A DNA stretch of 64,000 nt. It comes from Rozella allomycis CSF55 (lineage: Eukaryota). Numbering within the stretch: the stretch's first letter is position 1; every line of letters starts with the position of its first letter. The notes below the pieces were generated by a model. That model was given only the letters and a program-made list of their open reading frames with translations. It had not been told where the DNA came from and searched no databases. Below, piece after piece: positions 5,890 through 54,078 of the stretch. Position numbers and translations under genes: made by a program. The DNA lies in the NCBI GenBank assembly GCA_000442015.1, contig KE561209.1, positions 310,001 to 374,000 of the forward strand. The letters are read 5' to 3'.

Positions 5890-6700
5890 ATGCGTTTTAT
5901 GAATGTATCCTTTGTTTCGTAAATATATATGCATTAAATTTTGATTATCAGACTGAGTATTTTCATCCTACATTTAAATATTGGATAAATATACTTTATT
6001 ATTTGCAGATATTATTATTTATTATGATAATAAATTATAAAAAAATATATTCTCCCTTTACAAACCCGTTAAAACATTTAAATAACATTTCCGATATTCC
6101 AGATCAACCCTTGTAATTTCATGGATTCCAACCAAGGTAATAATAACCAGTGTAGCATAATAGACGTGGAAAGCCAAATAAAAGCGATCCAGAAAGCGCG
6201 ACAAGAAGGGCACCTCCGTTCCGACCAGCTAGCGTTTGGTTCAACGACGGGCGACTATGAAAAGGACCTGTATGCGCCAGGAGCACCCGAGTATNATGCC
6301 TTTTATGAATACTTCTTTTGTTTTTTAAATATATATGCATTAAATTTTGATTATTAGACTGAGTATTTTCATACTACATTTAAATATTGGATAAATATAC
6401 TTTATTATTTGCAGATATTATTATTTATTATGATAATAAATTATAAAAAAATATATTCTCCCTTTACAAACCCGTTAAAACATTTAAATAACATTTCCGA
6501 AATTCCAGATCAACCCTTGTAATTTCATGGATTCCAACCAAGGTAATAATAACCAGTGTAGCATAATAGACGTGGAAAGCCAAATAAAAGCGATCCAGAA
6601 AGCGCGACAAGAGGGGCGCCTCCGTTCCGACCAGCTAGCGTTTGGTTCAACGACGGGCGACTATGAAAAGGACCTGTATGCTCCAGGAGCACCCGAGTAT
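5890..6700. repeat. About 405-bp direct duplication across contig join n6295 (SF3B1 promoter and 5' end); probably uncollapsed alleles
   Basis: 5890-6294 vs 6296-6700 nearly identical with scattered SNPs (e.g. EGHLR vs EGRLR). Confidence 0.85.
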
Positions 6701-9700
6701 TCTCGCGAGATTGTAGAAGAGGAGTCTGATAAGAGAAGGCTAGTTGGCGAGTATGGCATGTCTCGGGAGATTGAGCAGGAGGTGTTGGCAGCGATGCCTG
6801 ACAATGACATGTTTTTGAAGGAAAAGGCTAGTGTTGATAAGAGCGAGTATCATAAGAGGAGGCTGAATCGCGTGTTGTCGCCTGAGAGACGTGATCCGTT
6901 TAATAAGAATGACAAGGGGAGGGGATTTAAGGATGCGATGATGGAGCAGGAGGTTGACAAGGAGGAGATTGAGATTTATAAGATGATTGAGGAGAAGAAG
7001 AAGGAGAGTTTGGAGGTTGAGAGTGTGAGAGTTGAGGTTGAGGAGCCTGTTGTTAAGAAGAGGAGATGGGATCAAACGCCCACGCCCAAGAGTAGTGAGT
7101 GGGATAAGGAAGAGGCTAGTGTGTCGAAGAGCCGATGGGACCAGACGCCAGTGTCTATGGATTCAGGCGCAACGCCTAGTAGAAGGAATCGATGGGATGA
7201 GACGCCTGTAGTGAGTTCTGGGAATGCTACTAGTGATAGGAAGAGCAAGAGCAGATGGGATGAGACGCCTGTTTATCAAGGAGGGATGGCGACGCCGCTT
7301 GGAAATGCACAGCCAATGATGACGCCGATGGCAGGCGATGTTTCAGTGTTTGATGCAAGGAACCGACCAATGTCTGATGAAGAGTTGGATGCTATATTGC
7401 CTAGTAAAGGGTATGCTATTTTGGAAGCGCCGTCTTCGTATGTTCCTATTAGAACGCCCGCGAGAAAGTTGATGGCGACACCTTCACCGATGGATGTATC
7501 AGGGTTTATGATGGGAACGCCGCAGATGAATGTTGTTGGGGATATGGGACAAGGACAGCCAAGTGATCCGTCGTTGCCGTTTGTGAAAGCAGAAGATTAT
7601 CAGCATTTTAGTAAATTACTGGAAGGAGGAAAGGAAGAAGAATTGAGTGTTGAAGAGATTAAAGAGAGAAAGATTATGAGATTGTTGTTGAAGATAAAGA
7701 ATGGATTGCCAGCACAAAGAAAGTCAGCGTTGAGACAGTTGACGATGAATGCGAGAGAGTTTGGTGCTGGGCCTTTGTTTAATCAAATATTGCCATTGTT
7801 GATGTCGCCAACGTTGGATGATCAAGAGAGACATATGTTGGTTAAAGTGATTGATAGGGTGTTGTACAAGTTGGATGATTTGGTTAGACCATATGTTCAT
7901 AAGATATTAGTTGTGATTGAGCCATTGTTGATTGATGAAGATTATTATGCTAGAGTTGAAGGAAGAGAAATTATATCAAATTTATCTAAAGCAGCTGGAC
8001 TAGCGACAATGATAGCGTCTATGAGGCCAGATATTGATCATCAAGATGAGTATGTGAGAAACACAACAGCTAGAGCGTTTTCAGTTGTAGGATCAGCGTT
8101 GGGTATTCCATCATTGTTACCATTTTTGAAGGCTGTTTGTAAGAGTAAGAAATCATGGCAAGCAAGACACACTGGAATTAAGATTGTGCAACAAATAGCG
8201 ATATTGATGGGATGTGCAGTGTTGCCACATTTGACGAGTCTGGTAGAAACTATAGCAGAAGGATTGAAGGATGAGCAGCAAAAGGTGAAGACGATTACTG
8301 GATTGGCATTGGCAGCGTTAGCAGAAGCATCGTCGCCTTATGGGATTGAATCATTTAGTATTGTGTTGGAGCCACTTTGGAAGGGGATTAGACAGCAGAG
8401 AGGAAAAGTGTTGGCGTCGTTTTTAAAAGCTATTGGATGTATAATACCATTGATGGATTCAGAATATGCGAATTATTATGTGAAAGAAGTGATGGAAGTG
8501 TTGAGAAGAGAATTCCAAACGCCTGATGAAGAGATGAAGAAGATTGTGTTGAAAGTTATTAAACAGTGTGTGTCTACAGAGGGGGTGACTAGTGGATTTA
8601 TTAAGAGTGAAATATTGCCAGATTATTTCAAGTATTTTTGGGTTAGAAGAATGGCGTTGGATAAGAGAAACTATAAGGCAGTTGTTGAGACTACTGTTGA
8701 GTTGGCAAAGCAAGTTGGAGGGTTGGAGATTGTTAAGAGGATTGTTGAAGATTTGAAGGATGAGAGTGAAGTGTTTAGAAGGATGGTGATGGATAGTATG
8801 AATCAAATAATAAAGAACATTGGAAGTTTAGATTTTGATGATAGATTAATTCAATTGATGATTGATGGATGTTTATTTGCGTTTCAAGAACAAACAGAAG
8901 ATTCTTTTGTTGTTATGAATTGTTTTGGGACTGTTGTGCAATCGTTGGGGATTAGATCTAAACCATTTTTGAATACAATTTGTTCTACTATTTTATGGAG
9001 ATTGAATAATAAATCAGCCAAAGTTAGACAACAAGCAGCAGATTTAGTTAAACAAATTTCACCAGTTATGAATATCTGTAATGAAGAGAAATTGTTAACA
9101 CATTTGAGTCTAGTTCTTTATGAATCTTTGGGTGAAGAATATCCAGAAGTTTTGGGTTCAATTTTAGGTTCATTAAAGTCAATTGTTAATGTTATTGGAA
9201 TGAATGAAATGAAACCTCCAATTAAAGATTTATTACCAAGATTAACACCCATTTTAAGAAATAGACATGAAAAAGTACAAGAGAATTGCATTGATTTGGT
9301 TGGTAGAATTGCTGATAGAGCTTCTGATCAAGTTTCTGCTAGAGAATGGATGAGAATTTGTTTTGAATTGTTAGAAATGGTTAAATCTCAAAAGAAATCT
9401 ATTAGAAGATCAGCTGTTAACACTTTTGGTTTCATTTCTAAAGCTATTGGCCCACAAGATGTTCTAGCTACTCTCTTAAACAATTTAAAAGTCCAAGAAA
9501 GAAATATGAGAATTTGTACTACAATTGCTATTGCCATTGTTGCTGAAAATTGTGGTCCATTCACTGTTCTTCCTGCTTTGATGAATGAATACAGAGTCCC
9601 TGAAGCAAATGTTCAAAATGGTGTTTTAAAAGCTTTATCTTTTCTATTTGAATACATTGGAGAAATTGCTAGAGATTACATTTACTCTGTCACTCCAATG

Positions 9701-10099
9701 CTAGAAGATGCTTTAATGGACAGAGACCTTGTGCACAGACAAATCGCTTCTTCCACAATCAAACATTTATCGCTGGGTGTTTACGGTGCTGGCTGTGAAG
9801 ATGTTTTAACTCATCTCCTAAACTTTATCTGGCCAAACGTTCTAGAAACATCTGCACACATGATGCAGGCGGTTATTGATGCTGTCGACGGTTTAAGAGT
9901 TTCAATTGGTCCTGGGCCCATCTTCTTTTATCTCGTTCAAGGCCTCTTCCATCCTGCTAGAAGAGTAAGAGAAATTTATTGGAAAATTTATAACAATCTC
10001 TACATTGGACATCAAGATGCTCTGGTTGCGTATTACACTCGCGTTGAAGATGATGACGAGAATTTGTATGCTAGATGTGAATTGGATCTTTTAATCTAA
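6527..10099 (+). CDS. SF3B1: Splicing factor 3B subunit 1 (SAP155/Hsh155/Prp10), intronless, 1190 aa
   Basis: RWDETP/RWDQTP ULM repeats, [19 protein letters not shown] repeats with [46 protein letters not shown]. Confidence 0.98.
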
Positions 10100-11014: not shown

Positions 11015-11015
11015 C

Positions 11016-11400
11016 ACTTGTCATACCTGACGAAATAAGGGTAATACGGACATTAATGTCCTAATAAGGGTCCTAATATACCACCAGTTGTCATTAAGAT
11101 AATTATGACCTGCATCCAGTGAGTACATAGAGTCTAAAATTCCACTAAACCTACACATAGATCATAATCATGGATATTGACGATAACATCGAAGTCATAA
11201 CCCCAATAACGATAATATTAGGTTCTATTAGTGATAAACAACATAGAATTCATACTCATTGATGGTGACTCAAGCTGGATCTCTTAGGATCTCTTAAGTA
11301 CTATTAATAGAATAAAACCGAGATAAAGGGCTCGGAGATATTATAAATAGACATACGGAAGATCCGTTCTCATACGATTTACGTTTTATTCTTAACTAAG
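11016..11400 (+). mobile_element. Possible LTR-like repeat, truncated at contig join
   Basis: Begins TGTCATACCTGAC exactly where hAT similarity stops; the same 13-mer and short shared motifs occur from 20563; TATAAATAG near 11342. Confidence 0.35.
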
Positions 11401-11401
11401 N

Positions 11402-35288: not shown

Positions 35289-35965
35289 AATGCTCTGTAT
35301 GTTCCGTTAAAAATTATTGCAAAGATGGAAAAGATTGATTTGTGGATAATTGAAAGCAAAAAGTACAAATGGAAGAAGAAAATGATGCGAAAAGAAATCG
35401 AAGAGGGTGATAATGTAAAGTTTTTGATTTGGTATTGTGGATCCATATACAAGTAGAGCTTCGACATAATCTGCAGCAATACGAAATCCAAAGCGACATC
35501 TACCAGAAGCAAAATAAAGACTCTGATTTTAGAACCATTTGAATTCTTGAACACGAGTTTTTCTAGCCACTTTACACCCGCGCATTCAGCCAAATCAGTG
35601 CTGCTCAATTTCCCCTTTGAATTCCCGTCATTTCCAATTTCATCAAAATTTTCAATCAAAAGCAAGGATCTTGCATACTCGTTAATGGACATTGGCGGTC
35701 TGTGGGGATGAATGACAAACAGATCCCAGAAGCGCATTCCAAACACGATATACGACAGTGTGAGAAACCAGTTGTACGAGCACTGCACCATATCTGAAGC
35801 GTCGAGTTTCGTGGTTGCGAAATAGTAGAACCCCGCGGCGAGACACACCAGCGCGGTTGCCGATCGGGAGGTGGCGTTGTGGTTGAGTCCGCAGGGGATG
35901 TACAATGTGCCTAGAATTATGGTTACTGTGAGTATTGCGTGTAACAGGCCTTGGATCATTGTCAT
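34859..35965 (-). CDS. MBOAT_2 / wax-synthase-like membrane-bound O-acyltransferase
   Basis: FRRPWKSTSLKDFWGHRWN and FFFSGLMHE motifs, multiple TM helices; likely start MTMIQ at 35965. Confidence 0.88.
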   Translation of the reverse strand: MTMIQGLLHAILTVTIILGTLYIPCGLNHNATSRSATALVCLAAGFYYFATTKLDASDMVQCSYNWFLTLSYIVFGMRFWDLFVIHPHRPPMSINEYARSLLLIENFDEIGNDGNSKGKLSSTDLAECAGVKWLEKLVFKNSNGSKIRVFILLLVDVALDFVLLQIMSKLYLYMDPQYQIKNFTLSPSSISFRIIFFFHLYFLLSIIHKSIFSIFAIIFNGTYRALFRRPWKSTSLKDFWGHRWNRHVQQCFFRMIYRPLANSSKLKSKNEGSMKFVLYMLTFFFSGLMHEFMIMPFAESFSGGMTLFFVLNGILTFGEMKIFKKGLNGIVGWVWTFSVILYLSPLFIEPFIAQSIGKVDIMTMFLIF

Positions 35966-36005
35966 GCAAAGTTGTAAATTCCGAGAAATTGTTTGAAAAA
36001 TCGGG

Positions 36006-39000
36006 ATGACTTCAAGTCTGATCGTGTGTACGACAGGTGTGTCTCCAGTGGACAAGGTAAAGTTTGATGTTTGAGAAATAAAGGCTGAGATTAAACGCAA
36101 GTGTAGTGTGAAGGGGATCGAGTATACGACGGAACTAAACAGCCGCGTAACGCATTTGATTGCGAGTGCGTCGTGTTCGGCCAAGTATCGGGTAAATTCA
36201 TAGTGAGTGTTTGATAGTTTGCTGTGGAGCATGGGATACCGATTGTGACGTGTGAATGGCTGGATGCTGTTGTGAATGGAGGGTCTGTGAAGCAGGTAAG
36301 CGATGCTGTTTGTGGGTGATGAGGCGACGATAGATCACAAGTTTCCGTGTTTTAAGGGGTGTTTGATTAGTATATCTGGGCCTATATTTGACAAGAGGGA
36401 GCGGGGTGTGTTGAAGGAGCTGATTGAGGGGCATGGCGGGGTGTATACGCCTGATTTGAAAAAGGACTGTACGCATTTGGTTACGTGTACGACTGAGGGA
36501 CTAAAGTACCAGTTTGCGAAAAAGTGGCGGATCAAGACGGTTGATAGACGGTGGGTGAGTGAAAGTGTGGCGAAGGGGGTGTTGTTGGAAGCTGAGATGT
36601 TTCCTATTGTTGAGGAGGGAGGGTGTGGATTTAAGATTGAGGATGTTGAGATTAATGAGAATAGTGAATCGTTTTTGGAGGGTTGTAAGATATATTTGAC
36701 GGACAGTTTTGATGATAAAGAGGTTTTGATATTGAAGAGATTGATACTGAGTGCGTGTGGATTGAGAATGCAAGAGTTTTCGTCTGGTGTGACGCATGTG
36801 ATTAATAAGACGAATAATTTGAATTTGAAAACCAAAGAGATGATTGATTTGAATGAGAATAGTGCGATTGTTTTGAATGTGAAGTGGTTGGTTGAGTCTT
36901 ATAAGCAGCAGAGGATGCTTTCGTATTCAAGTTTTATTGTGAGTGATGCTGTGCAGAAACTGCAGCGACAGTCATCAGTTTTGATTCAAGATTCAATTTG
37001 GCTTCAATCGTCGAATAAAGTTGAAAATAGATTTGGAGAAAAGATTAATAAAAAAGTTGGATTCTTTTCTGGATGTTCATTTAAAGTTTTGTGTAATCAA
37101 GTAAGAAAATAGATTGAATGATTTTTAAGAAGATTAATTTAGAGAAATCAATTATAGAAAATGGGGGAATTATTGAAGAAACAAATCCAAAATATTTCAT
37201 TGTAGATTTAGATCAAAGTGATGAAGAGAGCAATTCACTAGTTTCAGAAACATTTTCTAATGGAGCTTCAACTTCCACTTTAATGGTGACAACGTTGTGG
37301 GTTAATAGATGTATATTTGAACAAAGATNTAGATGTTTATTTGAACAAAGATTAATAAATATAAATGAATGCGACTATTTCAAACCATTGAGATTTAAGA
37401 TTGAGTTTGAATATAAAGTTTGTGTGACAGGGTTTGAAGATAAAGAATATTTAAGAGAAGATTTGAAAAAGATTGTAAATTATTTTGGGGGTGAATTTCT
37501 TTCTTCTTTTTCTAAAAAATGTTCAATTTTAATTTGTGAAAAACCAAAAGGAATGAAATTTGAAAAAGCTAAAAGTTGGGAAATTCCTTGCGTTAAATTT
37601 GATTGGATTTTGAAAATTATTAAATTAAAGAAAATTATTCCATTTAATGAATTTTTATTCAATGGTGAAGCAATGGGGGAAGTAATGGGGGAATTAATGG
37701 GAGATAATAATGGAGTGAATAAAGACAATGGAGTGAGTAGAGATGATAGAGATGATAGGGTTAACTTGTTTAATACAGATAATTACATTAACTTGAATAA
37801 ATTGAATGACGTTAAAGACGTTAACAGTGTTCAACAGAGTGATGTTAAGAGCTTTAAATCTGTTAACCCCTTTGAGACACCATTTGAATTCTCTAATTCT
37901 AATAATGGAATATTTTCGCCTATCAATTCAAGTTTGAATCAAATGGTTAAAATAAATAATTTGAAATCTCCACTCTCTTCTAAACAAAATAATTCTTCAC
38001 AATCTAATTTAATTCTTCCATCATTTGATTCTTCTTTAATAAATGAAAATGAAATATTAAAAGATTGTATTATTTATGTTAGTCACAGATTGTTTCACAG
38101 ACGTCAAGAATTATCAAATTTAGCTTTAAAATGTGGCGCCAAATTTCTTTGGTCTTTTGAAAATGACGTCACTCACTTCATCCATCAAGGAAATAGAATT
38201 CACGAATCTTTCAAAGAATTCAAATTAGCTCAACAAAAGAAAATGTTCATTGTTTCTCCTTGGTGGTTATTCAACGTAAATTAATTCTTCATCTATCATT
38301 CTAGTCTGCTCAAAGTTGTACACGTCTAGATGAATCAAACTTTCCTCACATTTTTCATCCAAATAAACCAAGATTAGTATTCACTCCACAATCTTTAACT
38401 TGTTCTCAAAATGTTGATTTCATTTACAAAACTTTTGAATCCAAAAACAACAAAAGAGATTTTAGAGAGAGTAAAGGTGCAATAGGAGAAGATAAAGAGA
38501 GTAAAGGTGCATTGAAAGAGAGTACAAAAGAGACAAAATTTGAAAGCTTCAAACATTTTGATAGTAAAGATTTCAACCAATTGGCTACCCCAGTGAAAGA
38601 TGACGTTACTGATGCATTAGAACAAATTCTTTTAACAACTTCAAAATTCAAAGGAAAGAAGAGAGAAAGAGAAAATTTTAATGATTCAAATGATTCAAGA
38701 CAATCTCTCTCTAAATCAGAAAGCATTTCTAGCCCCATTAANAACATTCTCTCTCTAAATCAGAAAGCATTTCTAGCCCCATTAAATCAAACAAAGTCAC
38801 AGTCAGCTATGACGATAAAGTTTTATCTTTAATTGAAAAAGAAAAATCAATTCAAATTAAGAAATCTGATAATGATTTATTCAACATTGACATTGATTTA
38901 CTCTCTGAATTGGAAAATCTATCAAAGGCGAATTGTTCAAAGTCAAATTGTTCAAATATAAATCTATCAAATTCCAATATAAATCAAATTGAAACACACT

Positions 39001-39753
39001 CATCTNCACACTCTTCTTCTCCAATAAAATCTAAAAAGAGAAAAAGCAAAATAAATTTAGATTCTTCATTCAATTCAAGCGAACCCAAACAAACTAAGAA
39101 AGTTTTCATCCTCTCATCAATAGAACACAAACTACGCCAAAAATTTACAAAAATTATAGAAAAACTTGGCGGCAAAATAATCGATGCTCCTCATTGGCAT
39201 CCCTCATGCACCCATCTAGTAGCGTCAAATTTAATGCGAACAGAAAAATTCTTATCAGCCTGCGCTGTAGGCGCTTGGATCCTGCATCCAGATTATTTCT
39301 CTGCATGCCAATCACAAAATGCATTTGTTGATGAAGAAAAGTATGAATGGAGCGCTATTTGGAGTCCCAAAATTTCATCGCTTGTTAATGCGCCTAAATA
39401 TTGTCGGCTGATGAACAAGTCTAGAAAAGGTAATATAAATTATTCATAGAAATTAAAGTTTATGAGAATTGGAATGTTTTGCTGTTGATTGATGAAAAGA
39501 GACTGGGTGGGTTTAAAAGATTAATTGAATTGGGCGGCGGGTATGTGTCTACTAGTGAAGATTCGTCATCAGTAAGTATTTTTAGTTTGGAAAATAGTTT
39601 ACTCATGTAATTACGGATACAAACTCTGCATCGGCACTTCGAATTGATGCGTTCAAGTCTAGATATCCAAATGCTGTCATTGCTAAAACTGATTACATTT
39701 CTGAATTTTTGATTAATGGAGATTCTTTTGATCCCTCTTACTTTATACTATAA
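36006..39753 (+). CDS. TOPBP1: Multi-BRCT replication/checkpoint scaffold TOPBP1 / Dpb11 / Rad4-Cut5
   Basis: Many BRCT repeats (VTHLI, CTHLV..KYQFAKKW, KFEKAKSWEIPCV, RTEKFLSACAVGAWILHPDY); introns 36057-36083, 36192-36217, 36296-36323 and others; three n joins inside. Confidence 0.85.
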
Positions 39754-40107: not shown

Positions 40108-42728
40108 GCGAGTGTTTAACAGCAAAAACGTGTGTGAAGCGACGATAACTGATAAGCAATTGAAGCGGGGGATAGAGAAATGCTGTGTATCGAGGATAGA
40201 TGGGAGGATGAAGGTTGTTGGATGGGACGGCCGTGAAGTGTTTGTGTATGATGTGAGGAGACGGTGTGTTGAGGTGTGTGTGGGCCGGGAGGGAGTTGTT
40301 GAGATTGTTGGTGTCAAGGTAAGAGATTTGTTTGGGGTGGGTAGGATGGATATGTGTTGGTGGATGGGAGTGGGCTTGAGATGTGTTTGGTTGAGAATGG
40401 GGAGTGGGTTGTTTTTAGGAGGGAGGAGGAGGATATTGTTGGTGTTGGGGTGAGTGGGAGTGTGTTGAGTGTTGTGAAGGAGAATGGCGATGTTGTTGTG
40501 TTTGAGGTTGATGAGGAGTTGATTGTGGAGAGAGGGAGGGTGAGTGTTGGGTGTTTTGGTAAGATTGTTTGGTTGAGATGAAAAGTTAAAAGAGCGGAGA
40601 GTGTGAAGAGTGAAGATGGGGTTTATATTGCAGCTGTTTGTGAAGGGTAATTTGTGTTGGTTTTTATCAAGTAGAAAAGTTTGTTTCTTTTTGGGAGAAG
40701 AAAAGATTGGAGAGTTTGGGATAAATAATAAAGAGTGTGAAGAATTTATGTGTTTTTGTAAACGTAAGGGGATATTTGAGGGGTGTTGTAGAGATTGATA
40801 GTTTTATAGTTAAAATATTTGTTAATAAATATAAAAGAGAAGAATTTCATGGGATTTCAATTCATTCATTTGTTTTGGAAAAGGAAAAGGTTGGAGTAGA
40901 GAGAACAGAAGAGTTTTCAACGTTTGATGAAGAGAGGGCAATTTTGGGGGTTGGATCTAAATATGGATCTAATGAAATAATTGTAATTTTTGAAGATAAA
41001 ATAAGTTTATATAAATCACATTCGTATTTACCAAATGTAGAAAAGAAAGTTTATGAAATTTTGGATTTGATAGATTTTAAGAAATGTCCATTTAATGAAG
41101 AGTTTAATTTGAAGATTAAAGAGAATAAAAGAGATGAATTGTTTATTGAGATTTTGTTGAAAGAAATGAAGAAAGAATTTCCACCAAAAAATGAAGATGA
41201 ATGTGAGAATTTGTTTTTATTAATTTTGAATAGTTTAAAATCTGAAAATGAAAAATTAGAAATTCTTTTTTATTTTTTGAATTTCTTTGATGAAAATTTA
41301 GCAGAAAAATTTGCAATGAAGAATGGATTTGAAAATAAAAGATTGATTAAAGGATTGTTTTATTTGGATCAGAATGAGATTGAATTGGCTACTGAAGAAT
41401 TAATTAAATGTTCAGAATTTAAATTTTCAAATAAAATTTTAGAAAAATTTATAAAAGAAAATAGATTTGACCAGGGTTATAGATTGTTGATCTGTGGCTT
41501 AGTTCCAAATGAAGATGAAAAAACTTTTGAATTAAAATTAGAAATTTTGATGCGAGTGAATTTTTTTGAATCTTTTTGTTTCCAAAGAATGAAGAGTGGC
41601 TTATTTCTAAAATTTATTGAATTTGGATTAGAAAACAAAATGAAAGAATTAAATTTTATTCCATTTGATTCATTTGAACAAGGCCAATTAATTAATTTTT
41701 GTTCTTCTTCTTCAAATCCAAAAGTTCATGAATTTCTTTTTAATTATTTTATTAACAAGAATCAATTCATTGAAGCAATCCAATTTTATAATGCAAGACC
41801 CTTGTTGAATAAAGTTAAAATTGTTGAAGAAATTAAATCTATTATTCCAGAATGTCAAAAGTATTTATTAAATGAAAAATTGTTTAATGAAAAGGTTGAA
41901 GATTTAAATCAAGAAATTGTTCATACTTCATCTTTTCAATCTATAGATTTGGATTTATTATCCCCTGTAAAAGTAACCAAAACTTTAAAAATGAATTTGA
42001 AAGTTTTAAAGGTTATGGAAGGGGATTCTCTAAGTAGTTTGAAGGGTGATTCTTTAAGTAGTTTGAAGGGCGATAGTTTGAAAGTAGAATTAAATAATTC
42101 ATTTAATTCTGTAGCCGTTAATTCTCCAGTTAGAACGTCTAGTTTAACACCAATCAAATCACCAATTCTTTCACCTTCAAGTGTTTTAAAATCAACTTCT
42201 GGTGAAACTAATTTAAATCTTCCAATTACTTCTCCATTAAAACAATATTATCTTAGACAATCACCTCAAACAGTTCAAATTCCTTCAAGACCTAAAATTC
42301 CAATTCCTGATGAAATTCTTTCAAAAAAGAGAAGAACTTCTAAACTATCAATCGTCTCTTTTCCTGATGATGAAGAATCTTTAAAATCTACAAGAAAGAA
42401 ATTTCAATCTCTAAAAGTTCAAGAAATTACCCCTGTAAGAAGATCTCCAAGATTTTCAAGGCAGAAAATTTCTTTAAATGAAAAAGATTTAGAAAGCAAG
42501 AGCAAACTTTCTTTTAATACTATGGAACAAAATAACAAATCAAATAATGTTGAAAATAAGAGCAAATTGTCTTCTAATACTATTCAGTCTACTGTTAGTG
42601 GTGTTTGGTCCATCAAACATAAAAGTGATGATGATGTTTCAAAGAATAAACGTACATCCCCAAGGATTAGAAATGTTAATCCTAAAACTACTTCAAGGCC
42701 ACCAAGAAAGGATAGATCAAAGAAATAA
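40108..42728 (+). CDS. ELYS/Ely5-like nucleoporin; 5' end uncertain at n40107
   Basis: Beta-rich N-terminus, ELYS-type helical region (LEILFYFL...IKGLFYLDQNEIELATEEL), S/T-P and basic C-terminal tail. Confidence 0.6.
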
Positions 42729-43150: not shown

Positions 43151-43320
43151 ATGAAACGAATGAAACAGGGGAAATCTATTTTAATCCCTTAAAAGAATCA
43201 AATCCATATATTAACTCGAATGAAATTTTCTTGTCCAATATCTTCTTATTTCAATCCACTCTATTTTAATCCACCTAAAATCTTTCTATTTTAATCCACC
43301 ACAAATCCGAATTTTACAAA

Positions 43321-44822
43321 ATGGCAAAAACTGAACACAACGTCAACCAAGCAATTCTCAAGAAAATCTACGATATCTACAACAGTCCCCAAAACCCTCT
43401 CAGTAACAAACACCCGCAATTCACACCAGGCCTAAACGCAATTTCTCAAAAGGTCAATATCAAAATATCAGCACCACGCAAGAAGGCTCTCATAATGCTG
43501 CTCGGAAACCACTCGGCGGGAAAAAGCTCCTTTATCAACTGGTACCACACACACAGACTCCATTTCATAAAGGTACACCGAGGACGCCATCCAGCGAACC
43601 TCCGTAGCTATTGAAACCCAGGGATTCGTATTCGTCACCAGCGGCAAGGCAAGGAAGACTTTGAAGGGGCCGGCGACTGTTGAGCTGTATCCGCATCTCG
43701 CGCCGATGGCTGCAATGCCCGGCGTGCTCGAGAATATGGCCACCGAGGTGTCGGAATCGAGGGCGAGGAAATTTGAAATGATGCATTTTGTGGATACTCC
43801 GGGGCTGGTCGATGGCGATATGAATGTAAGGGGTCGTCGCTCGTTTTTATAGTATCCGTTTGATCCTGATCAGGTTTTGAATTTTCTGGCGGAGGAAGCG
43901 CACTTGATTCTCGGTATGTTAGTTGCTATGCTTGAATAGTTTTCTTTGATCCTATTGGCCAGGCACTGTGCAGAAGGACGATGAATATTGTTGAAAAGCT
44001 GCATGACGTTCATGGAGACAAGATGAGGTATTATTTGTCGAAAGCTGATACTGTGCCGGATGAGTCTGATAGGCAAAGAGTTTTGATCCAAATTACGCAG
44101 AATTTGACTGCTAGATTGAAAAATAAACAATTTGAATTGCCGCCAATTTTTATCCCGACTTTGACGGACAAGGAGAGTAACTTTTTGAATGATAGGAGAA
44201 CAAAGGCAGTGTTAAGAATCACATTGATGGTGTTTGCAACGATATTGAAAAGGTTATCAATCTTAATGTCCAAAACACATTAAACTCTTTTGAAAATGAT
44301 ACAGTTAATCTACTGGCCAAAATTACAGAGTAAGGATGATTGTTAACTATTAATGAAATTTAAACCAAAATGAAAAGATTAAAAAGCAAAATTCTTCAGC
44401 TCGAAAGAGAGGTTTCTTGTTGTTCCTAGTTTCATTAATCTTTCCGGCATTTGTTATCGCGCATGCTGGTTATGACTTGATTCTACCATTCATTCCTAAA
44501 GAAGCGTTATTCTATACAAATTTTATCAATGTGAAAATGACTAGACTAATTCCAGGTAACTCGATCGTAAATTGTTGAAAGAATATGACATGCCACAGAT
44601 TGGAATCACGGTGGCGGTTTCTTTTCTGTTCTTTGCTATCTCTAATTATGTTTGGGATATAAAACCTACACTGAGCAGAAAAGATGTTAATTATCTCAAA
44701 GAAGCCCATCGATATTTAAGCCAGGAAGCCACAAAGTTAAGGAGGAGTAATTGATATTTTGTTCAATCATAGATCTTTACGAAGAATATTTTAGGCAATC
44801 TATAGAAAATGAAACACTTTAA
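43321..44822 (+). CDS. EHD/sarcalumenin/dynamin-like P-loop GTPase with C-terminal TM helices, multi-exon
   Basis: LLGNHSAGKSSFINW, FVDTPG, FFDP, YLSKAD; hydrophobic segments near 44410-44480 and 44600-44650. Confidence 0.8.
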
Positions 44823-48073: not shown

Positions 48074-49155
48074 ATGCAAGAAAACCTGAAAAGTAGTACT
48101 AGTATATCTCGTCTGAGCATACCAAACTTGCTAAATCAAGAACAAGAAAATGATAGAAAGGTACGTAAAGCCACTCACGCTGGAACATGGTATGAAGATA
48201 ACAGTAAGAATCTTTTTTCTTTGTTAAAGGCGCTCGTCTCAATGACAAAGTACTAACATTTATTGACAATGTCGTCGCAGAAATAGATCAGAATCGCAAG
48301 CTTAAAGCTCTGATTGTACCGTAATTCCATTCTTTCCATTTTGTCAAGGCATGCTGGTCTAAAGTTTTCAGGGCAAACTGCGGCCTATTCATACAACCAC
48401 TTACTACAGAAGATTAATGAAATGTAAATGCTCTTTTTTAATATCTCTACTTCTAGTTCTAAGATTTTTGTTTTAGGGCCATCTCACCACTCTTATCTGG
48501 AAAAGCCTGCTGTAAGCACAGTGGACGTGTATGAAACACCATTGGGCAACATTGAAATTGATACTAAAAGTAAAAAATAGACACTATTAAAACAGTCGCC
48601 CATGAATTGATTTCTTCTGGAGCATTTTCTAAACTACCAAAAGATGTTGATGAAGATGAGCATTCAATTGAAATGCAATTGCCATTTATTGCTCATATTC
48701 TAAATAGCGTGTCTTGCAAAGTTTCACTTATTCCAATCTTAATCGGACAAATGAACAAAGTTACACTTCATAGCACAGTGAAAACCTTGTTGCCATATTT
48801 TGCTGATACAGACACAGTTTTCATTATATCTTCTGACTTTTGTCATTACGGTCCTCGTTTTTCGTATACCCCGTTTTCAAACTCTAAGACGCCTATCTAT
48901 AGTGAAATAGAGCAATTGGATAATGATGCTATTAACATGATTTTGGATATGGATTTAAAGTCTTTCGAAATGTATTTGAACCAAACTGGAAACACCATTT
49001 GTGGTCGACATGCAATCAGAGTCTTGTTATCGATCCTCTCGGAATTCAAAGATGAATTCTCAGGCACTCTATTGCATTATTCGCAGTCTAATAAAGCAGT
49101 CTCAGGGACAGATTCATCAGTTAGCTACGCAGCCATAGCATTCACGACAAAATAA
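48074..49155 (+). CDS. MEMO1: MEMO1-family protein, multi-exon
   Basis: RKATHAGTWY, HAG, LGPSHH, EHSIEMQLPF, SSDFCHYG, NTICG, SSVSYA. Confidence 0.92.
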
Positions 49156-49189
49156 ACCAAAGCAAAGTGAGCATAAAATTATACATTTA

Positions 49190-49963
49190 TTACACTGCGC
49201 TGTAGCGATTAAACGTTCCCTGAAACAGTGACGCAGGTTTCAATTCTTTAGAATTCGAAGCCAGAATTCCATGCATACTTTTACTAGCATTCTTCAACTT
49301 TTCTTCCAATTCCGGAAGAATCTGATCAACTCTTTTCTTTGTTGCCAAACTCGACACAGAATCGTCTTCCTTTTCAGCTTTCCTTTTCTTTCTTTTCGAT
49401 TTGCTCTTGATAGCCGCCAGCAATAGTTTCTGTTCATCAGCCGTCGCATTCAACGGAACTTGCCCGCTAACATCCACCCCACAAACTGGGCATTTTTCAG
49501 TCTTTTCCTTTTCAACCAGCAGCTCATTAGCCCCCTTTTCACTCACAACGCACCCACACGGTCTATAATACAAAAATCGGGATGATCCGTTCATTTCCTT
49601 TCTAGTAATAGGACATATAAATTGCGCTACTATCACCTCGTATCCGTCATTCGAAGCTTGTTTCTCGTACAGTGGGTTCGCAGTGAGTTTCAGTTCAGTG
49701 ACATCCTTGAGGGATCGGACGTGTCCGGCGACTGTTTCGCCGTCGCCATACGTTTCTTTGCCGAGAAGGTATTTGATGAGAGATTCTTTCGAGTATAAAC
49801 GGCCGAGACTGCACGATACTATGGGCTGGTTGAGCCGCTCTTTTGATAGGGCGCAGAAGTGCCATTTAGCGGTCGTCTGTGGTTCAGGATTTTCTTGCTT
49901 TTCTTTGGCTTTTGTTCTGATCATTTCGCAACGCTTTGGTATCGATCCGCCGTCGCAACCCAT
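49190..49963 (-). CDS. RTF2: Replication termination factor 2 (Rtf2 RING-like)
   Basis: MGCDGGSIPKR, CALS..L..PIV...LGRLYSKE, HVRSLKDV, FICPIT.KEMNG, CGCVVSE. Confidence 0.93.
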   Translation of the reverse strand: MGCDGGSIPKRCEMIRTKAKEKQENPEPQTTAKWHFCALSKERLNQPIVSCSLGRLYSKESLIKYLLGKETYGDGETVAGHVRSLKDVTELKLTANPLYEKQASNDGYEVIVAQFICPITRKEMNGSSRFLYYRPCGCVVSEKGANELLVEKEKTEKCPVCGVDVSGQVPLNATADEQKLLLAAIKSKSKRKKRKAEKEDDSVSSLATKKRVDQILPELEEKLKNASKSMHGILASNSKELKPASLFQGTFNRYSAV

Positions 49964-50099
49964 TTCGATTTATTTGTGGCTGAGTAGAGAATGTAGAGAA
50001 TGAAGAGTACAATTGTCCAAATATGTAACTATTACAGTATGTTTAAATGAATTATAATTTATTGAATTTAAATAAACCTCTACACAACGGACAAGAACT

Positions 50100-53000
50100 T
50101 TAAAATAAACTTCTGCACAACGGACAAGAACTTTGCGCTGAGCTTTTGAACCACTTGAACAAACAAGGCCCATGAAACTTATTCTTGCAAGTTTTGCACA
50201 TCTGCGACGGCAGCGACTTGTCTGTGATATGAATGACCGAGTAGCAGATGGGACAATCGTCGATGCCTTCGAAGCGCTTGTCAGCGTTATTCTTCCAAAG
50301 CAGCAGTGCATCGAGAATAGACAGATTCTAATTTATAATGGTAAAGATGAATACTTGGGAGGTGATTGCTGTTTGCGAGACGAGGAGCCATTGCCTCCAC
50401 TTGCCTTCATTAACGCCCGCGCGTTTGCCGCCTTCGACGGTGACTTGACGAAGCGGATATATGAGGGGGATGTTGACTTGGATTTCCATTGACACATCGT
50501 CGATTGTGTATTTGGCGACTACTTGGGCGTCTGAGCCTGATGGCTGGATCACTTTGAAGATTGTGTTTTCGAGACATGATTGATCGAATGATCGGATGAG
50601 ACTTAATTCTCTTTGGATAAGAATTGGTGAAAAGTATTTCTTTGTGTATCTGTTGAATTGAATGAAATGTGTTACTGTTCGAGAGCCAGGGTGATTGAAC
50701 GATTGTTGGATTCAGCGATCCATCTGCGTACAATGAATGATGAATGAAACAGTAACTTGTAGTAAAGGAATGCGCAAATTAGTTGTTTGCTGTTTGAATC
50801 GTTGAAGGAACTGAAGAATAGATTGGGAATGAATTCTGAAATATCAAACTTTGAGATATCGAAAGCTTTTTCAGAAATGTTTAAATTAACACAGATGATT
50901 TCTAGTAATTGTTCGATTAAAGACCAATGGTTGTCTTTTAATGCAACCATAATATTTAAGCGATCTAATTCACCCTTTTATGAATGTGAATGAAAATGTT
51001 TACTTTATCTTCAAGAATGTCAAAAAGTAAAAGAAAGCCAACAATCATTGAATCTAAACTCTAAGAATAGATTGAGAGAGTGTAGATTACCTTGTTTGTG
51101 AATATTTTAAACAGCAGGGGGTCAATTGTGAGATCTTTTTCATTTTCAATTGTTATCCAATCAGTAATGTTTGTGGTATTCTTGACTAGAAGATACCCAA
51201 TCATTGCCTTTTCAAAATATTCAGAATCCACAATTAAATCAGAAAAATTCAAATCTAAATCTATTTTGTTTAAATCTTTTATTTCAATAGATTCTTTCAC
51301 TTCATTGGAATATTTTTCTAAATAGATTGAATAAAGAAGATTAAATAGATTAAAATGATTTGAATTTGAAATTTCAGAAAAGCAAAATCTAAAAATAGAA
51401 TCATTGAAAGGTTTCTTTAAGACAGATTTTAACGCTAAATGTTTTAATTCCAAACAAGACAAAGAAAAGAAATCATCGACAGACAAATTTGATTCATCAG
51501 CCAAAGAAGAAAGCATTAAATTGATTTTATCAAACTTTTGAATTTCAAATTTCTCTAGATAGCCAGAATAATCAAATGGTTTAAATTTTAATAATTTTTG
51601 AAATTGAAGATTAAATTTTGCAAAAATTATTTCTCGTCTTGCTAGATCTATTTCAGAAATTTCATTTTGTTTGTTTAGAATTAACTTTTGAAGAATGAAT
51701 GGAGTTGAATCTTTTTCAAATTCAAAACATTCCAAGAAATTAACAAATGAAAAACTAGAAAGAATAGCCAATGGATCTCTTAAAGAAATTTTATCATTTT
51801 TAGAAAGTTTTTCTTCAATTAATGAATCTAAAAGAGATATTTCATTAAACAATTCTGGTTCAACATCCCTTGCATAAAGAAATAGATTAGATCGAAATTT
51901 TAATGCATTTTCAATAGAAAAGGAAAAAGATTCTTTTAGAAAATATATTACTAATTTTCCAATTGAAGAATAATTTTTAATTTCAAATTCAGAAACTAAA
52001 ATGAATGGATCTAATTGTGGCTGGTGTATTTTATAAATAGATTCAGAAATTTCTAAAATATTCAAAAGTAAATCTTCTTGTTCTTTTAAAGTCTTTTTGT
52101 TTAGAATCAATTTAAACAATTTTAATGAAATCTCATTTGGATCTATTTTGTAATTTTCAAAAATATATTTAATGAATTTCTCTGGATTTGAAATATTTTT
52201 CAAGATTAAATTATCTACAAGGATTAAACTGAAATAGATTTGAAACATATAATTCTCATGTTCTTCAAATTTAGGATCTTCAATTTCTTTATCTAGAATC
52301 TTTTTGATTAATCTATAATAAAGATTTGGATTTGAATTCAAGATTAATTCATTGAGGGTTGAAACCCAATCTTGATTTAAATTATCTAAAAACATTTCAT
52401 GTAAATTTTCTTCTTTACAAATTAATTTTAAATCTTCAAATTTTGGTTTAAAAATTTCAGAAAATGATTTTGGATTTTTACAAATAAATTTTACCGCCAA
52501 TTTTTGATTTAATGAAAATAAAACTTTTAACGCATTTATTACTTTATTATTTTCTTCTTTTCTTTCTTGATAAATTAAAATTAAATCTTCCAATTCCTTT
52601 TCATTCAAATCTCCAATTTCAATCTCTAAAACTTGTTCATTTAAATACTTTGGAAATTTAGAATAAAATGGCAACAAAATTCTCAAATCTTTAATTTTTA
52701 TTATTTTTTCAATATTTTCTTCAACATTAACAATCTCTTTAACATTTTCTAAAATAAAACAAAATTTTCTAATCTCATTTTGATTTTTCACTTTTTCATT
52801 CAAATTATTTAAAATTAATTCAATTTGTTCCTTTTGCAAATTTTCTAAAATAAATTTCACTTGATCGTTTCCAATTAATGAATCATTGGAAAAAAGCCAA
52901 TCTTCAAATGGAATCAAAATTGCTTCTTTTTCCAACCAATCTTTTTCTCTTATTGAATTCTTTATTAAATAATTTAAATTCTCAACAAATGTTTTAACAA

Positions 53001-54078
53001 CAAGAAAGATTAATGAAAATTCTAAATATTCAGATCTAATTCCCTTCCAAATTGCATTCACAAACAATTTAACATTAATCTTTTCTCCAATTAAATTCAA
53101 CAATGGCAAAATAAATGGATAAACTAAATTTCCTTGTCTTTTACATCCATTTTCTAAATATCCATAAAATCTATTCAACAATGGCTTCTTTGGCACATTC
53201 TTCTCCCAAATCTCAATATTCCTTTCACTCATCAACAAAATACATTCCCACAAGCTTTCAACCAACAAACTCTCTTCTTCTTCAAACGCATTCATCAAAA
53301 TATTCTTTTGAATCTCCAAATTCAATTTCATCCCCTTGCTCAACATAATCTTTATCAATTTAAATCCAGATTGTCTCAAAAACACATTATTCTCTTTATT
53401 CAAAATATTATTCCAAATCTCAACATCCATCATCCCCTCATTAACATCTTCCACATACCCATTCTCCACCAAATATCCCACCATCATCAACCCACTTCCA
53501 ACAATCCTAGCAAACTTAAACTCCACATCCTCATAATCCGCACAACTATCCTTCAAATCCCCCCTCTTAGTTTGCACAACACACCCCTCCACATACTTCA
53601 ATACACTCTCCAAACAATACTCAATCACCATTCTCCTCTTATCCTCCCCAAACGCACTCTACTCACCCACTCCAATCACCCTTACCTCAAAATTACTCTT
53701 CGAAACACCTTGCACCGACAAAGCCGGATCAAACCACGAACAAAACCACGCACCACTATACTCTTTCAAAACAGGTGCAAGCGNACGAACAAAACCACGC
53801 TCCACTATACTCTCTCAAAACAGGTGCAAGCGCCTTCTTATCCCTCTTCAAAATCTCCCCAACTACCCGATTCACACCCTCCCTCACACTCTTCGCGCCA
53901 TCCACACACAGCTTCACATACGGCTTCACAAACACTCCTGCAAACTCTCCAACATTGTCCACAGTCTCGATCATCGCGCTTATTTGCTCCAGCGATTTTT
54001 GGCGCGTTATTATATCCTTTTTACTCAGCTTCTTCAAAAGAACTACTAGCTCGGGGTCAAGCTCAGTGGCAGTCGGCC
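50100..54078 (-). CDS. LTN1: Listerin E3 ubiquitin ligase (LTN1/Rkr1), multi-exon; extreme 5' end lost at n54079
   Basis: N-terminal [19 protein letters not shown]-like [21 protein letters not shown]-terminal [39 protein letters not shown], stop 50102-50100. Confidence 0.92.

What the first reader, a model, noticed from the sequence alone, without database searches (positions are those of the whole stretch)
6700..54000. Recurring 3-5 kb domains of strand-asymmetric cytosine loss, independent of gene orientation
Seen by eye: several blocks share one + strand profile: G-rich/C-poor left flank, extremely AT-rich CpG-poor core, C-rich/G-poor right flank, bounded by short CpG-rich switches. Examples: ~6700-9900 (SF3B1, +), ~21200-26000 (+, weaker right flank), ~36200-39300 (+), ~40130-43620, ~50450-54000 (LTN1, -), and a right half at ~11400-13150 (-). 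Other stretches (1-5000, 26400-33500, 60000-64000) lack it. The polarity is the same for + and - genes, so transcription strand or codon bias alone does not explain it. Inference: recurrent C->T deamination of single-stranded DNA, either on resected 3' overhangs around break hotspots in the AT cores or on lagging-strand templates of forks converging from the CpG-rich boundaries. It also appears to push encoded proteins toward F/L/I/N/K/E.
Basis: partly seen in the sequence, partly recalled or inferred. Interest (0 to 1): 0.7.

Follow-up and report, generated by a model that had tools for sequence, protein, structure and literature searches.

The report
Extreme gene-start GC skew in Rozella
In this stretch of the parasitic fungus Rozella allomycis, the first 1.5 to 3.5 kb of six long genes have almost no cytosine and a large excess of guanine on the coding strand, an extreme form of a strand bias seen at gene starts in other organisms.

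Summary
The blocks are real and far beyond chance. GC skew in 300-bp windows reaches +0.93 (133 G, 5 C) and -0.92. 104 of 1275 windows have |skew| >= 0.5, against a mean of 0.01 after G/C randomisation.

The window is Rozella allomycis nuclear DNA. The skew is strongest at synonymous sites and also present in non-coding DNA: SF3B1 third positions G167:C7, one ELYS intron G46:C1. It therefore acts on the DNA or transcript, not on proteins.

It is not independent of gene orientation. 102 of the 104 windows lie in six long genes, always with G on the sense strand, starting at a CpG-rich 5' island. A weaker reversed skew at 3' ends makes the profile antisymmetric, so + and - genes look alike on the + strand.

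Guanine gain is as large as cytosine loss.

My best reading (about 0.5) is transcription-coupled mutation of the exposed non-template strand, possibly through R-loops. Converging forks and breaks in the AT-rich cores fit worse.

This is a new, extreme variant of a known kind. No transcript, R-loop, origin or methylation data could be examined.

The parts
6527..10099 (+). SF3B1 gene, one open frame. The sense-G skew zone runs about 6700-8950. A weak reversed zone (C3 > G3) runs about 9227-10096.
   Evidence: 100% identical to an NCBI protein of Rozella allomycis CSF55; orthologues are named splicing factor 3B subunit 1. Third-position skew per 450 nt: +0.44, +0.76, +0.94, +0.91, +0.90, +0.80, -0.13, -0.31.
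11379..14500 (-). RhoGEF/SH3 coiled-coil gene, with sense-strand G excess along its whole length (the + strand is C-rich).
   Evidence: Pfam RhoGEF 1.1e-18 and SH3 4e-06. Third-position skew is +0.51 to +0.80 in all 7 bins. The skew starts abruptly at the stop codon. A segment between ORFs at 13527-13638 has G24:C6 on the sense strand.
20867..26200 (+). Long unnamed helical-repeat-like gene. The skew zone runs about 21100-23700 and fades by about 24900, followed by an AT-rich core.
   Evidence: ORF chain; no Pfam hit above cut-off. Third-position skew: +0.20, +0.80, +0.70, +0.74, +0.46, +0.59, +0.42, +0.21, +0.03, +0.03, -0.20.
35900..39750 (+). Multi-BRCT gene. The sense-G zone runs about 35900-37900, the reversed zone about 37900-39300, and there is a minor - to + switch near 39300.
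   Evidence: Pfam BRCT 9.5e-26 and RTT107_BRCT_5 3e-15. Third-position skew: +0.72, +0.90, +0.54, +0.21, -0.59, -0.41, -0.33, +0.39.
40130..42728 (+). ELYS-type nucleoporin gene. The sense-G zone is 40130-41600. The extreme tract is 40200-40800, with 1-6 C and 31-49 G per 100 nt.
   Evidence: Pfam ELYS 1.3e-21. 100-nt bins. Intron 40319-40418 has G46 C1, and the first 90 codons encode no A, P, T, H or Q.
50103..54088 (-). The sense-G zone is 54050-52400, the extreme tract 53750-53300, the AT-rich core 52400-50900, and the reversed, CpG-rich 3' zone 51000-50300.
   Evidence: RING finger 4e-09. Sense third-position skew: +0.74, +0.95, +0.77, +0.58, +0.09, +0.14, -0.25, -0.62, -0.07.
35611..36637 (.). 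Example of a CpG-rich switch island, shared by the divergent MBOAT (-) and BRCT (+) genes. Only the BRCT side is skewed.
   Evidence: Up to 30 CpG per 400 bp. MBOAT third-position skew is -0.10 and -0.03 over its first 900 nt, against +0.72 and +0.90 for BRCT.
43443..44016 (.). CpG-rich switch island (switch at 43619) lying about 300 nt inside a + strand P-loop gene. Its left flank, 43151-43500, is C-rich on the + strand. This is the one strong block that does not have G on the sense strand of the gene it overlaps.
   Evidence: 2 of the 104 strong windows.
49033..50638 (.). CpG-rich region spanning the Rtf2 (-) gene start and the LTN1 3' exons, with a - to + switch at 49652.
   Evidence: Pfam Rtf2 5.8e-62.

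Best explanation
This is a transcription-linked strand asymmetry anchored at CpG-island-like gene starts, taken to an extreme.

In a subset of Rozella genes (six long genes here), the non-template (sense) strand over 1.5-3.5 kb from the 5' island has been driven toward G and T and away from C and A. The proposed cause is that this strand is repeatedly left single-stranded during transcription, most plausibly in co-transcriptional R-loops. C is then deaminated to U (read as T) and A to hypoxanthine (read as G). Some further C-to-G change may come from bypass of abasic sites.

This acts on top of a local drive toward G+C near the islands, which some unskewed genes also show. A G-rich non-template strand favours R-loops, so the process could reinforce itself. 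That would explain why genes are either extreme or unskewed.

The weaker reversed skew at 3' ends is attributed to antisense or divergent transcription from CpG-rich 3' or neighbouring promoters.

Shown: the composition, its strand, its sites and its anchoring to gene orientation. Inferred: transcription as the cause, R-loops, deamination, the feedback and the antisense transcripts.
For: (1) Orientation. 102 of 104 windows with |skew| >= 0.5 lie in six genes, always with G on the sense strand: four + genes and two - genes. Third-position skew is above 0 in 17 of 18 ORF sets.
(2) Anchoring. The skew rises within 0-300 nt of the start codon at a CpG-rich island and peaks 300-900 nt downstream. 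Intergenic DNA is balanced: 39751-40129 has G61:C59 and 10097-11381 has G228:C223. The RhoGEF skew ends at its stop codon.
(3) It acts on DNA or transcript, not protein. In 5' zones, 2-fold sites have C/(C+T) 0.110 and G/(G+A) 0.487, against 0.255 and 0.344 in controls. 4-fold sites have G 0.312 and C 0.055, against 0.139 and 0.142. All eight 4-fold families behave alike. The ELYS intron has G46:C1, its leader G30:C7, and a BRCT inter-ORF segment G38:C9.
(4) One-sided islands. At the shared MBOAT/BRCT island only the BRCT side is skewed. The upstream flanks of the SF3B1, ELYS, LTN1 and 20867-gene islands reach only |0.1-0.2|, against 0.5-0.9 downstream.
(5) No sign of selection for G-tract motifs. 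G3+ runs are at or below the shuffle expectation in 4 of 4 zones.
(6) It is a property of Rozella, not of the gene. SF3B1 third-position skew is +0.93 and +0.87 here, against -0.24 to +0.45 in the 31 of 32 metagenomic SF3B1 loci that had enough codons.
(7) Precedent. [quoted passage not shown] Substitution asymmetries along mammalian genes are stronger for genes starting in CpG islands (PMC2927911, abstract read).
Against: No transcript data were available, so start sites, expression levels and antisense RNAs are all unknown.

The switch lies 200-330 nt downstream of the ATG in three genes (20867 gene, P-loop gene at 43321, Rtf2). There the first part of the transcribed sense strand is neutral or C-rich. 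At 43151-43500 the sense strand of the overlapping + gene is strongly C-rich.

The reversed 3' skew is sizeable: LTN1 third positions G13:C56 and BRCT G6:C23. It needs antisense transcription that was postulated, not observed.

In 4 of 5 genes the sign change falls roughly midway between neighbouring islands, as converging forks would predict.

3' UTR-sized segments after stop codons are not skewed.

Purines rise at 4-fold sites from 0.48 to 0.61, so transitions by deamination alone are not enough.

Conserved genes with CpG-rich starts (MBOAT, Rtf2, P-loop gene) are hardly skewed. The skewed genes are not ones expected to be highly expressed (own knowledge).

The sample is one 64-kb window with about 18 ORF sets, using ORF-based gene models.
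Confidence: 0.5

Rival explanations
1. Replication-associated skew. The CpG-rich islands are replication origins, the lagging-strand template is exposed on each side, and forks converge in the AT-rich cores. This would be a kilobase-scale version of mammalian N-shaped skew domains, with transcription only modulating the amplitude.
For: All 8 switches at CpG-rich islands go from - to +, the polarity expected at origins. Third-position skew declines from + to - across the BRCT and LTN1 genes. The sign change lies near the midpoint between neighbouring islands for BRCT (about 37900 against 37875-37975), ELYS (about 41600-41750 against 41860) and LTN1 (about 52300 against 51850-52075). G+T enrichment is also the leading-strand signature (own knowledge).
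Against: Amplitude is strongly one-sided at 5 strong islands and follows gene direction in 6 of 6 genes. The MBOAT flank of the island near 35850 is unskewed. Just before the ELYS island the skew is + (third positions +0.39), not at its most negative. In the 20867 gene the skew fades after 2.6-3.8 kb although the next island is about 13 kb away. Skew stops at the RhoGEF stop codon and the intergenic DNA is balanced. Replicons of 3-5 kb and a skew of 0.9 exceed any nuclear replication skew I know of (own knowledge).
Confidence: 0.13
2. Recombination-linked asymmetry. Recurrent double-strand breaks are followed by deamination of resected 3' overhangs, or by strand-asymmetric mismatch repair or biased gene conversion in heteroduplex DNA. 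The breaks would lie either in the AT cores or at the islands.
For: GC content and CpG are highest at gene ends and fall toward the cores. This resembles gradients attributed to biased gene conversion near gene starts (PMC2927911, abstract). GC3-rich but unskewed genes (MBOAT 0.51, P-loop gene 0.60) show that a drive toward G+C exists apart from the skew. Breaks in the cores would give the observed polarity (inference).
Against: With breaks in the cores, exposure should be greatest next to the core. The skew is instead greatest next to the island and decays toward the core. With breaks at the islands, the exposed 3' overhang is the opposite strand, which gives the wrong polarity (inference from the 5'-to-3' direction of resection). 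The one-sidedness that follows gene direction is unexplained. There is no TpC-specific depletion (TC o/e 0.96).
Confidence: 0.08
3. Selection. A G-rich, C-poor sense strand is favoured for function: R-loop formation that keeps the gene start open or unmethylated, weakly structured mRNA, sparing of CTP, or codon preference.
For: The same polarity, with CpG-rich starts next to CpG-poor gene bodies, is reported at unmethylated human CpG-island promoters (PMC3787257). A C-avoidance hypothesis has been proposed for fungal skews (PMC3315797, abstract). In the RhoGEF gene the skew ends at the stop codon, and 3' UTR-sized segments are unskewed.
Against: Introns and a 5' leader are as skewed as exons. 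All codon families shift alike. G-runs and G4-like motifs are not enriched over shuffles. The reversed sign at 3' ends of the same mRNAs contradicts simple C-avoidance or codon preference. Selection on thousands of synonymous sites seems unlikely in an obligate intracellular parasite (inference).
Confidence: 0.1
4. Artefact of sequencing, amplification or assembly, such as damaged or chemically converted DNA.
For: The window holds 31 single N and two N runs, and a 306-bp near-identical tandem duplicate that ends at an N.
Against: The frames stay open and encode conserved proteins through the zones. 31-mers of 39800-44300 are held at shares of 0.92, 0.89 and 0.72 by runs from different studies and years. 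The skew follows gene structure.
Confidence: 0.02

Closest known systems
GC skew at strong CpG-island promoters of human housekeeping genes, which are prone to R-loops (Ginno et al. 2013, PMC3787257; abstract and section 4 read)
   Same: A CpG-rich, GC-rich island sits at the gene start. G>C rises sharply on the non-template strand at the start. Conserved housekeeping-type genes show it and CpG-poor lineage-specific genes do not. Gene bodies are CpG-depleted.
   Different: The amplitude is up to 0.9 over 0.6-1.5 kb and the zone extends 1.5-3.5 kb; I recall much smaller skews for human promoters, but read no amplitude figure in the paper. The genome background here is AT-rich. The 3' skew is reversed here, whereas the human 3'-end skew is tied to transcription termination and I recall it as same-sense, without having read its sign. 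Protein composition is visibly rewritten. R-loops and methylation were not tested here.
[quoted passage not shown]
   Same: The two gene ends carry opposite signs. The effect is seen at 4-fold sites. Amino-acid usage is affected. The authors attribute it to transcription.
   Different: The polarity is inverted: those fungi are C-biased at 5' and G-biased at 3', while Rozella is G-biased at 5' and C-biased at 3'. Only the short leader upstream of the SF3B1 ATG is C-rich (G4:C19). The amplitude is much larger here, and only a subset of genes is affected.
Transcription-associated substitution asymmetries in vertebrates (Polak et al. 2010, PMC2927911, abstract read) and the G+T excess on mammalian coding strands (Green et al. 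2003, recalled, not read)
   Same: The sense strand is enriched in G and T. The effect is stronger for genes that start in CpG islands. Transcription-coupled mutagenesis and repair are the proposed causes.
   Different: I recall mammalian skews as a few percent. Here C is nearly eliminated from the sense strand.
Strand-asymmetric composition of vertebrate mitochondrial DNA, attributed to time spent single-stranded (recalled, not read)
   Same: The amplitude at 4-fold sites is comparable. The signature, C and A lost and T and G gained on the exposed strand, is the same.
   Different: That is an organellar genome with a replication-driven asymmetry. This is nuclear, kilobase-scale and anchored to genes.

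Membership tests
CpG-island-type promoter GC skew (R-loop class) | A CpG-rich, GC-rich island at the gene start | tested here: met
   Islands with 16-32 CpG per 400 bp and GC 0.39-0.51 sit at the starts of SF3B1, the 20867 gene, BRCT, ELYS, LTN1 and Rtf2.
CpG-island-type promoter GC skew (R-loop class) | A sharp rise of G>C on the non-template strand at the transcription start | tested here: inconclusive
   A sharp rise occurs within 0-330 nt of the start codon in 6 genes. The transcription start sites themselves are unknown.
CpG-island-type promoter GC skew (R-loop class) | R-loop formation and an unmethylated state over the skewed zone | not testable with these tools
   The only indirect hint is CpG o/e of 0.84 in 5' zones against 0.37 in cores.
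Opposite 5'/3' GC skews of unicellular fungi | Opposite signs at the two gene ends, visible at 4-fold sites | tested here: met
   Pooled 4-fold sites: 5' zones G 0.312 and C 0.055; 3' zones G 0.067 and C 0.146.
Opposite 5'/3' GC skews of unicellular fungi | Coding strand C-biased at 5' and G-biased at 3' | tested here: not met
   The polarity is inverted in all 5 genes that show both zones.
Replication N-domain skew | Upward (- to +) jumps at the domain borders | tested here: met
   8 of 8 island switches go from - to +.
Replication N-domain skew | Similar amplitude on both sides of a border, whatever the gene direction | tested here: not met
   Strongly one-sided at the islands near 6539, 21061, 35850, 40100 and 54052. 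The strong side is always the sense direction of a long gene.
Replication N-domain skew | The profile scales with the distance between borders | tested here: inconclusive
   The zero crossing is near the midpoint for BRCT, ELYS and LTN1. In the 20867 gene the skew is gone after 2.6-3.8 kb of a roughly 13-kb interval.
Deamination of resected DNA at breaks / APOBEC-type clustered mutation | The effect is strongest next to the break, with a TpC context preference | tested here: not met
   The skew is strongest at the island edge, not at the core. TC o/e is 0.96 in the zones.
Repeat-induced point mutation (RIP) | Acts on duplicated DNA, leaving an excess of TpA and a loss of CpA (features recalled) | tested here: not met
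   The targets are conserved genes that occur once in this window (genome-wide copy number untested). TpA o/e is 0.58 and CpA o/e 1.15 in the zones.

The most novel reading that the evidence does not exclude
Rozella has a self-reinforcing, promoter-proximal hypermutation regime. R-loops, or an AID/APOBEC-like deaminase or a loss of uracil repair, expose the non-template strand. C and A are deaminated, the strand becomes more G-rich, and R-loops form more readily. The end state is kilobase tracts almost free of cytosine. These tracts remove five amino acids (A, P, T, H, Q) from the N-terminal parts of conserved proteins. It would be a germline counterpart of somatic hypermutation acting on ordinary genes.
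Probability: 0.25. Interest if true: 0.8.

Novelty: new variant of a known kind. Interest (0 to 1): 0.6.

Why it matters
If the cause is transcription-coupled, Rozella shows how far such a bias can go in a nuclear genome: synonymous G:C ratios of 20:1 or more, and a 90-residue stretch of a conserved nucleoporin with no alanine, proline, threonine, histidine or glutamine.

That would make it a natural system for three questions: how R-loops, single-strand exposure and repair shape sequence; why polarity differs between fungal lineages; and how proteins tolerate a reduced amino-acid alphabet.

There are practical consequences too. Gene finders and codon or phylogenetic models that assume stationary composition would be misled in this organism. 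Antisense frames stay open across the zones, for example 40093-40803 (-) and 53158-54105 (+).

Tried and rejected
Tools that gave nothing.
- Whole-genome test: no genome is held for this window.
Independent support for the sequence therefore rests on k-mer shares only.
- No RNA holder was listed for 39800-44300.
- tRNA scan: 0 genes.

Tests that gave no clear answer.
- Polarised amino-acid changes in SF3B1. At 867 columns conserved in at least 80% of 65 orthologues, Rozella differs at 166. In codons 1-900 the inferred changes were C>T 2.0 against T>C 1.0, G>A 12.0 against A>G 6.3, and C>G 9.8 against G>C 3.0. There is no clear deamination signature, so the constrained protein is not being pushed.
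- Context of the surviving cytosines: no TpC or CpG effect. TC o/e is 0.96, CG 0.84, CC 1.56.
- G-run and G4-like motif enrichment: none.
- The 306-bp duplicate of the SF3B1 start has only 4 differences, too few to polarise.
- Two near-identical protein fragments of the LTN1-like gene (99% and 90% identity) gave no usable strand information.

Readings rejected.
- RIP (no duplication of these genes seen in the window; TpA is not raised).
- mRNA-mediated retro-conversion of edited transcripts (the introns are skewed and the bias is at the 5' end).
- Selection for mRNA structure or codon use (see rivals).

Literature. Four searches for a description of nuclear skew or of composition or codon-usage gradients in Rozella found nothing relevant (the hits concern mitochondrial genomes). 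Two searches on Rozella DNA methylation found nothing relevant. The Rozella genome paper and its supplement were not seen and could bear on novelty.

Full report
IDENTITY AND LIMITS. The long open frame at 6527-10096 is 100% identical to an NCBI protein of Rozella allomycis CSF55, and its orthologues are named splicing factor 3B subunit 1. The window is therefore nuclear DNA of this AT-rich intracellular parasite of the water mould Allomyces (host recalled). Everything below rests on this 64-kb window, approximate gene models built from open frames, Pfam, homologues, and papers.

- In 1-kb windows GC skew reaches +0.715 (40001-41000) and -0.692 (53001-54000).
- In 300-bp windows it reaches +0.93 (40351-40650: 133 G, 5 C) and -0.92 (53401-53700: 5 G, 122 C).
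- 104 of 1275 windows have |skew| >= 0.5. In 200 randomisations of G/C identity the highest maximum was 0.51 and the mean number of such windows was 0.01.
- The cores are AT-rich (GC about 0.20-0.24) and CpG-poor: pooled o/e is 0.37, against 0.84 in the skewed 5' zones and 0.71 in control ORFs.
- The boundaries are CpG-rich, and every switch there goes from - to +.
- K-mers of 39800-44300 are held at shares of 0.92, 0.89 and 0.72 by runs of different studies and years, and the frames stay open and conserved. An artefact is unlikely.

WHAT THE BLOCKS ARE. Each block is a gene.
- SF3B1 (+).
- A RhoGEF/SH3 coiled-coil gene (-), a multi-BRCT gene (+) and an ELYS-type nucleoporin gene (+) (Pfam).
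- A long unnamed helical-repeat-like gene from 20867 (+).
- An LTN1-like RING gene (-). It has a RING finger and N-terminal homology to unnamed proteins of 1500-1900 aa.

All 104 strong windows fall in 15 runs. 102 of them lie in these six genes, always with G on the sense strand. The other two (43151-43500) lie at the start of a + strand P-loop gene.

The skew rises at a CpG-rich island within 0-330 nt of the start codon, peaks 300-900 nt downstream and lasts 1.5-3.5 kb.

THE 'WOULD REFUTE' TESTS. The skew does not vanish at degenerate sites. It is strongest there.
- SF3B1 nt 901-2250: third positions G167:C7, 4-fold sites G58:C1.
- Pooled 5' zones of the six genes: C/(C+T) at 2-fold sites 0.110 and G/(G+A) 0.487, against 0.255 and 0.344 in ten control ORFs. 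4-fold G 0.312 and C 0.055, against 0.139 and 0.142.
- All eight 4-fold codon families shift the same way.
- Non-coding DNA inside the zones is equally skewed: ELYS intron 40319-40418 G46:C1, ELYS leader G30:C7, a BRCT inter-ORF segment G38:C9.
- Intergenic DNA is balanced: G61:C59 and G228:C223.

There are real switches inside genes. Third-position skew runs +0.72, +0.90, +0.54, +0.21, -0.59, -0.41, -0.33, +0.39 along BRCT. In the sense orientation it runs +0.74, +0.95, +0.77, +0.58, +0.09, +0.14, -0.25, -0.62, -0.07 along the LTN1-like gene. In pooled 3' zones G is depleted (4-fold G 0.067, C 0.146).

ORIENTATION. But a profile that is + at the 5' end and - at the 3' end is unchanged by reverse-complementing, so polarity cannot exclude transcription. 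Amplitude can. The strong flank is on the left in the four + genes and on the right in the two - genes. Third-position skew is positive on the sense strand in 17 of 18 ORF sets.

NOT ONLY CYTOSINE LOSS. Guanine gain is at least as large. In 40201-40500 the + strand is 48% G, 32% T, 17% A and 3% C. At 4-fold sites G gains 0.17 while C loses 0.09 and A and T about 0.04 each. Purines rise from 0.48 to 0.61.

EFFECTS ON PROTEINS.
- The first 90 residues of the ELYS-type protein contain no A, P, T, H or Q, and 78% are G, V, W, M, C, D, E or R.
- In the conserved N-terminal domain of the LTN1-like protein, 50 aligned homologues (of the 53 distant hits; two near-identical fragments set aside) average 30.6 such residues over 135 columns, where Rozella has 8. 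Replacements are often toward G and V.
- Over all 5' zones A, P, T, H and Q are each lower, and V, E and G higher, than in controls.
- The cores are enriched in F, L, I, N, K and Y: 58% in the LTN1-like core against 44% in controls.
- Conserved SF3B1 columns show no clear directional push.

A ROZELLA PROPERTY. In SF3B1 loci recovered from metagenomes, 31 of 32 had at least one bin of 60 or more codons. Third-position skew per quarter of the gene ranges from -0.24 to +0.45. Rozella has +0.59, +0.93, +0.87 and -0.25. A few AT-rich loci show a mild decline from 5' to 3', which suggests that Rozella exaggerates a wider trend.

MECHANISM. Four sources of strand asymmetry were weighed.

(a) Transcription. 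The non-template strand is exposed, most plausibly in R-loops. This fits:
- the orientation rule;
- the sharp onset at the gene start;
- balanced intergenic DNA;
- the end of the RhoGEF skew at its stop codon;
- the one-sidedness of strong islands. At the island shared by the divergent MBOAT and BRCT genes only the BRCT side is skewed, and upstream flanks of the other strong islands reach only |0.1-0.2|.

The G+T-rich product is what deamination of C and A on an exposed strand would give (inference; the mitochondrial analogy is recalled). G-runs and G4-like motifs are not enriched, which favours per-site mutation pressure over selection for motifs.

(b) Origins at the islands with converging forks. 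This has the right polarity (8 of 8 switches) and roughly the right midpoints for three genes. It does not explain the one-sidedness. It does not explain the + skew just upstream of the ELYS island. It does not explain why the 20867 gene's skew is lost within 2.6-3.8 kb of a roughly 13-kb interval between islands.

(c) Breaks with resection. Breaks in the cores give the right polarity but the wrong shape, because the skew is greatest far from the core. Breaks at the islands give the wrong polarity. There is no TpC signature.

(d) Selection on mRNA or codons. This is contradicted by the skewed introns and the reversed 3' ends.

A separate drive toward G+C near islands, possibly biased gene conversion, is suggested by GC3-rich genes without skew (MBOAT 0.51, P-loop gene 0.60).

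WHAT DOES NOT FIT THE FAVOURED READING.
- In three genes the switch lies 200-330 nt inside the coding region.
- The block at 43151-43500 is C-rich on the sense strand of the gene it overlaps.
- The reversed 3' skews are sizeable and need antisense transcription that I could not observe.
- 3' UTR-sized segments are unskewed.
- The purine excess needs transversions.
- The skewed genes share length (CDS about 2.3 kb or more) rather than any obvious high expression.
- The sample is small.

I therefore hold the transcription reading at about 0.5.

COMPARISON WITH THE LITERATURE.
- Closest in polarity and anatomy are human strong CpG-island promoters of housekeeping genes. They show a sharp rise of positive skew at the start site and form R-loops (PMC3787257, abstract and section 4 read).
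[quoted passage not shown] It is seen at 4-fold sites and in amino-acid usage, but with the inverse polarity and modest size (PMC3315797, abstract and sections 4 and 8 read).
- A C>G skew around plant and some fungal start sites is also known (PMC555766, abstract read).
- Stronger asymmetries for genes starting in CpG islands are reported in mammals (PMC2927911, abstract read).
- Four searches for Rozella nuclear skew or for composition or codon-usage gradients found nothing relevant. The Rozella genome paper and all supplements were not seen.

VERDICT. The feature is real, highly non-random and tied to genes. It is an extreme, polarity-inverted (for a fungus) variant of known transcription-associated skew.

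Noticed in passing
5990-6295 and 6396-6701: A 306-bp near-identical tandem duplicate of the SF3B1 promoter and first about 58 codons, with 4 differences. The upstream copy ends at a single N. It is either a real duplication or an assembly or haplotype artefact.
   Followed up: partly
57125-59657 (+), N run at 59687: A Ty3/gypsy-type retroelement with capsid, zinc knuckle, aspartyl protease, reverse transcriptase and RNase H domains. It has low GC3 (0.24), no 4-fold GC skew (G30:C29) and only a mild third-position skew (+0.20).
   Followed up: partly
17515-18921 (-): A gene encoding about a dozen tandem 13-residue repeats rich in P, T, V, A, N and K, preceded by a likely signal or membrane segment. 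The opposite strand also stays open.
   Followed up: no
10589-10984, 15763-16062, 16095-16475: Repeated CpG-rich element. The copy at 16153-16380 (+) has a weak BED zinc-finger hit. It may be a transposon remnant, and it accounts for some CpG 'islands' that are not gene starts.
   Followed up: partly
53662-54088 (-), N at 53784: In the first exons of the LTN1-like gene a 15-residue peptide stretch appears twice, in two frames on either side of a single N. This is a possible local mis-assembly or a small duplication.
   Followed up: no
40093-40803 (-) and 53158-54105 (+): Long open frames on the antisense strand of the skew zones. They are by-products of the composition, since few stop codons are possible without G. 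They could be mistaken for genes.
   Followed up: yes
51064-51900 (-): A public protein fragment (P0121, 332 aa) is only 90% identical to the core of the LTN1-like protein, while another fragment (P0122) is 99% identical to the 5' part. This suggests a divergent haplotype or strain.
   Followed up: partly
6440-6526 (+): The 87 nt just upstream of the SF3B1 start codon are C-rich on the sense strand (G4:C19). This is the polarity reported for other fungi and plants, and it flips to G-rich inside the gene.
   Followed up: no
L012, L013, L021, L028 (metagenome SF3B1 loci): These loci show a milder decline of third-position GC skew along SF3B1, from about +0.35 to +0.45 in the first half to about 0 at the 3' end. 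Rozella may be exaggerating a broader trend.
   Followed up: no
42758-43180 (-): A small ORF with an N-terminal hydrophobic segment and a His-rich stretch, lying between the ELYS and P-loop genes. No Pfam family matched.
   Followed up: no
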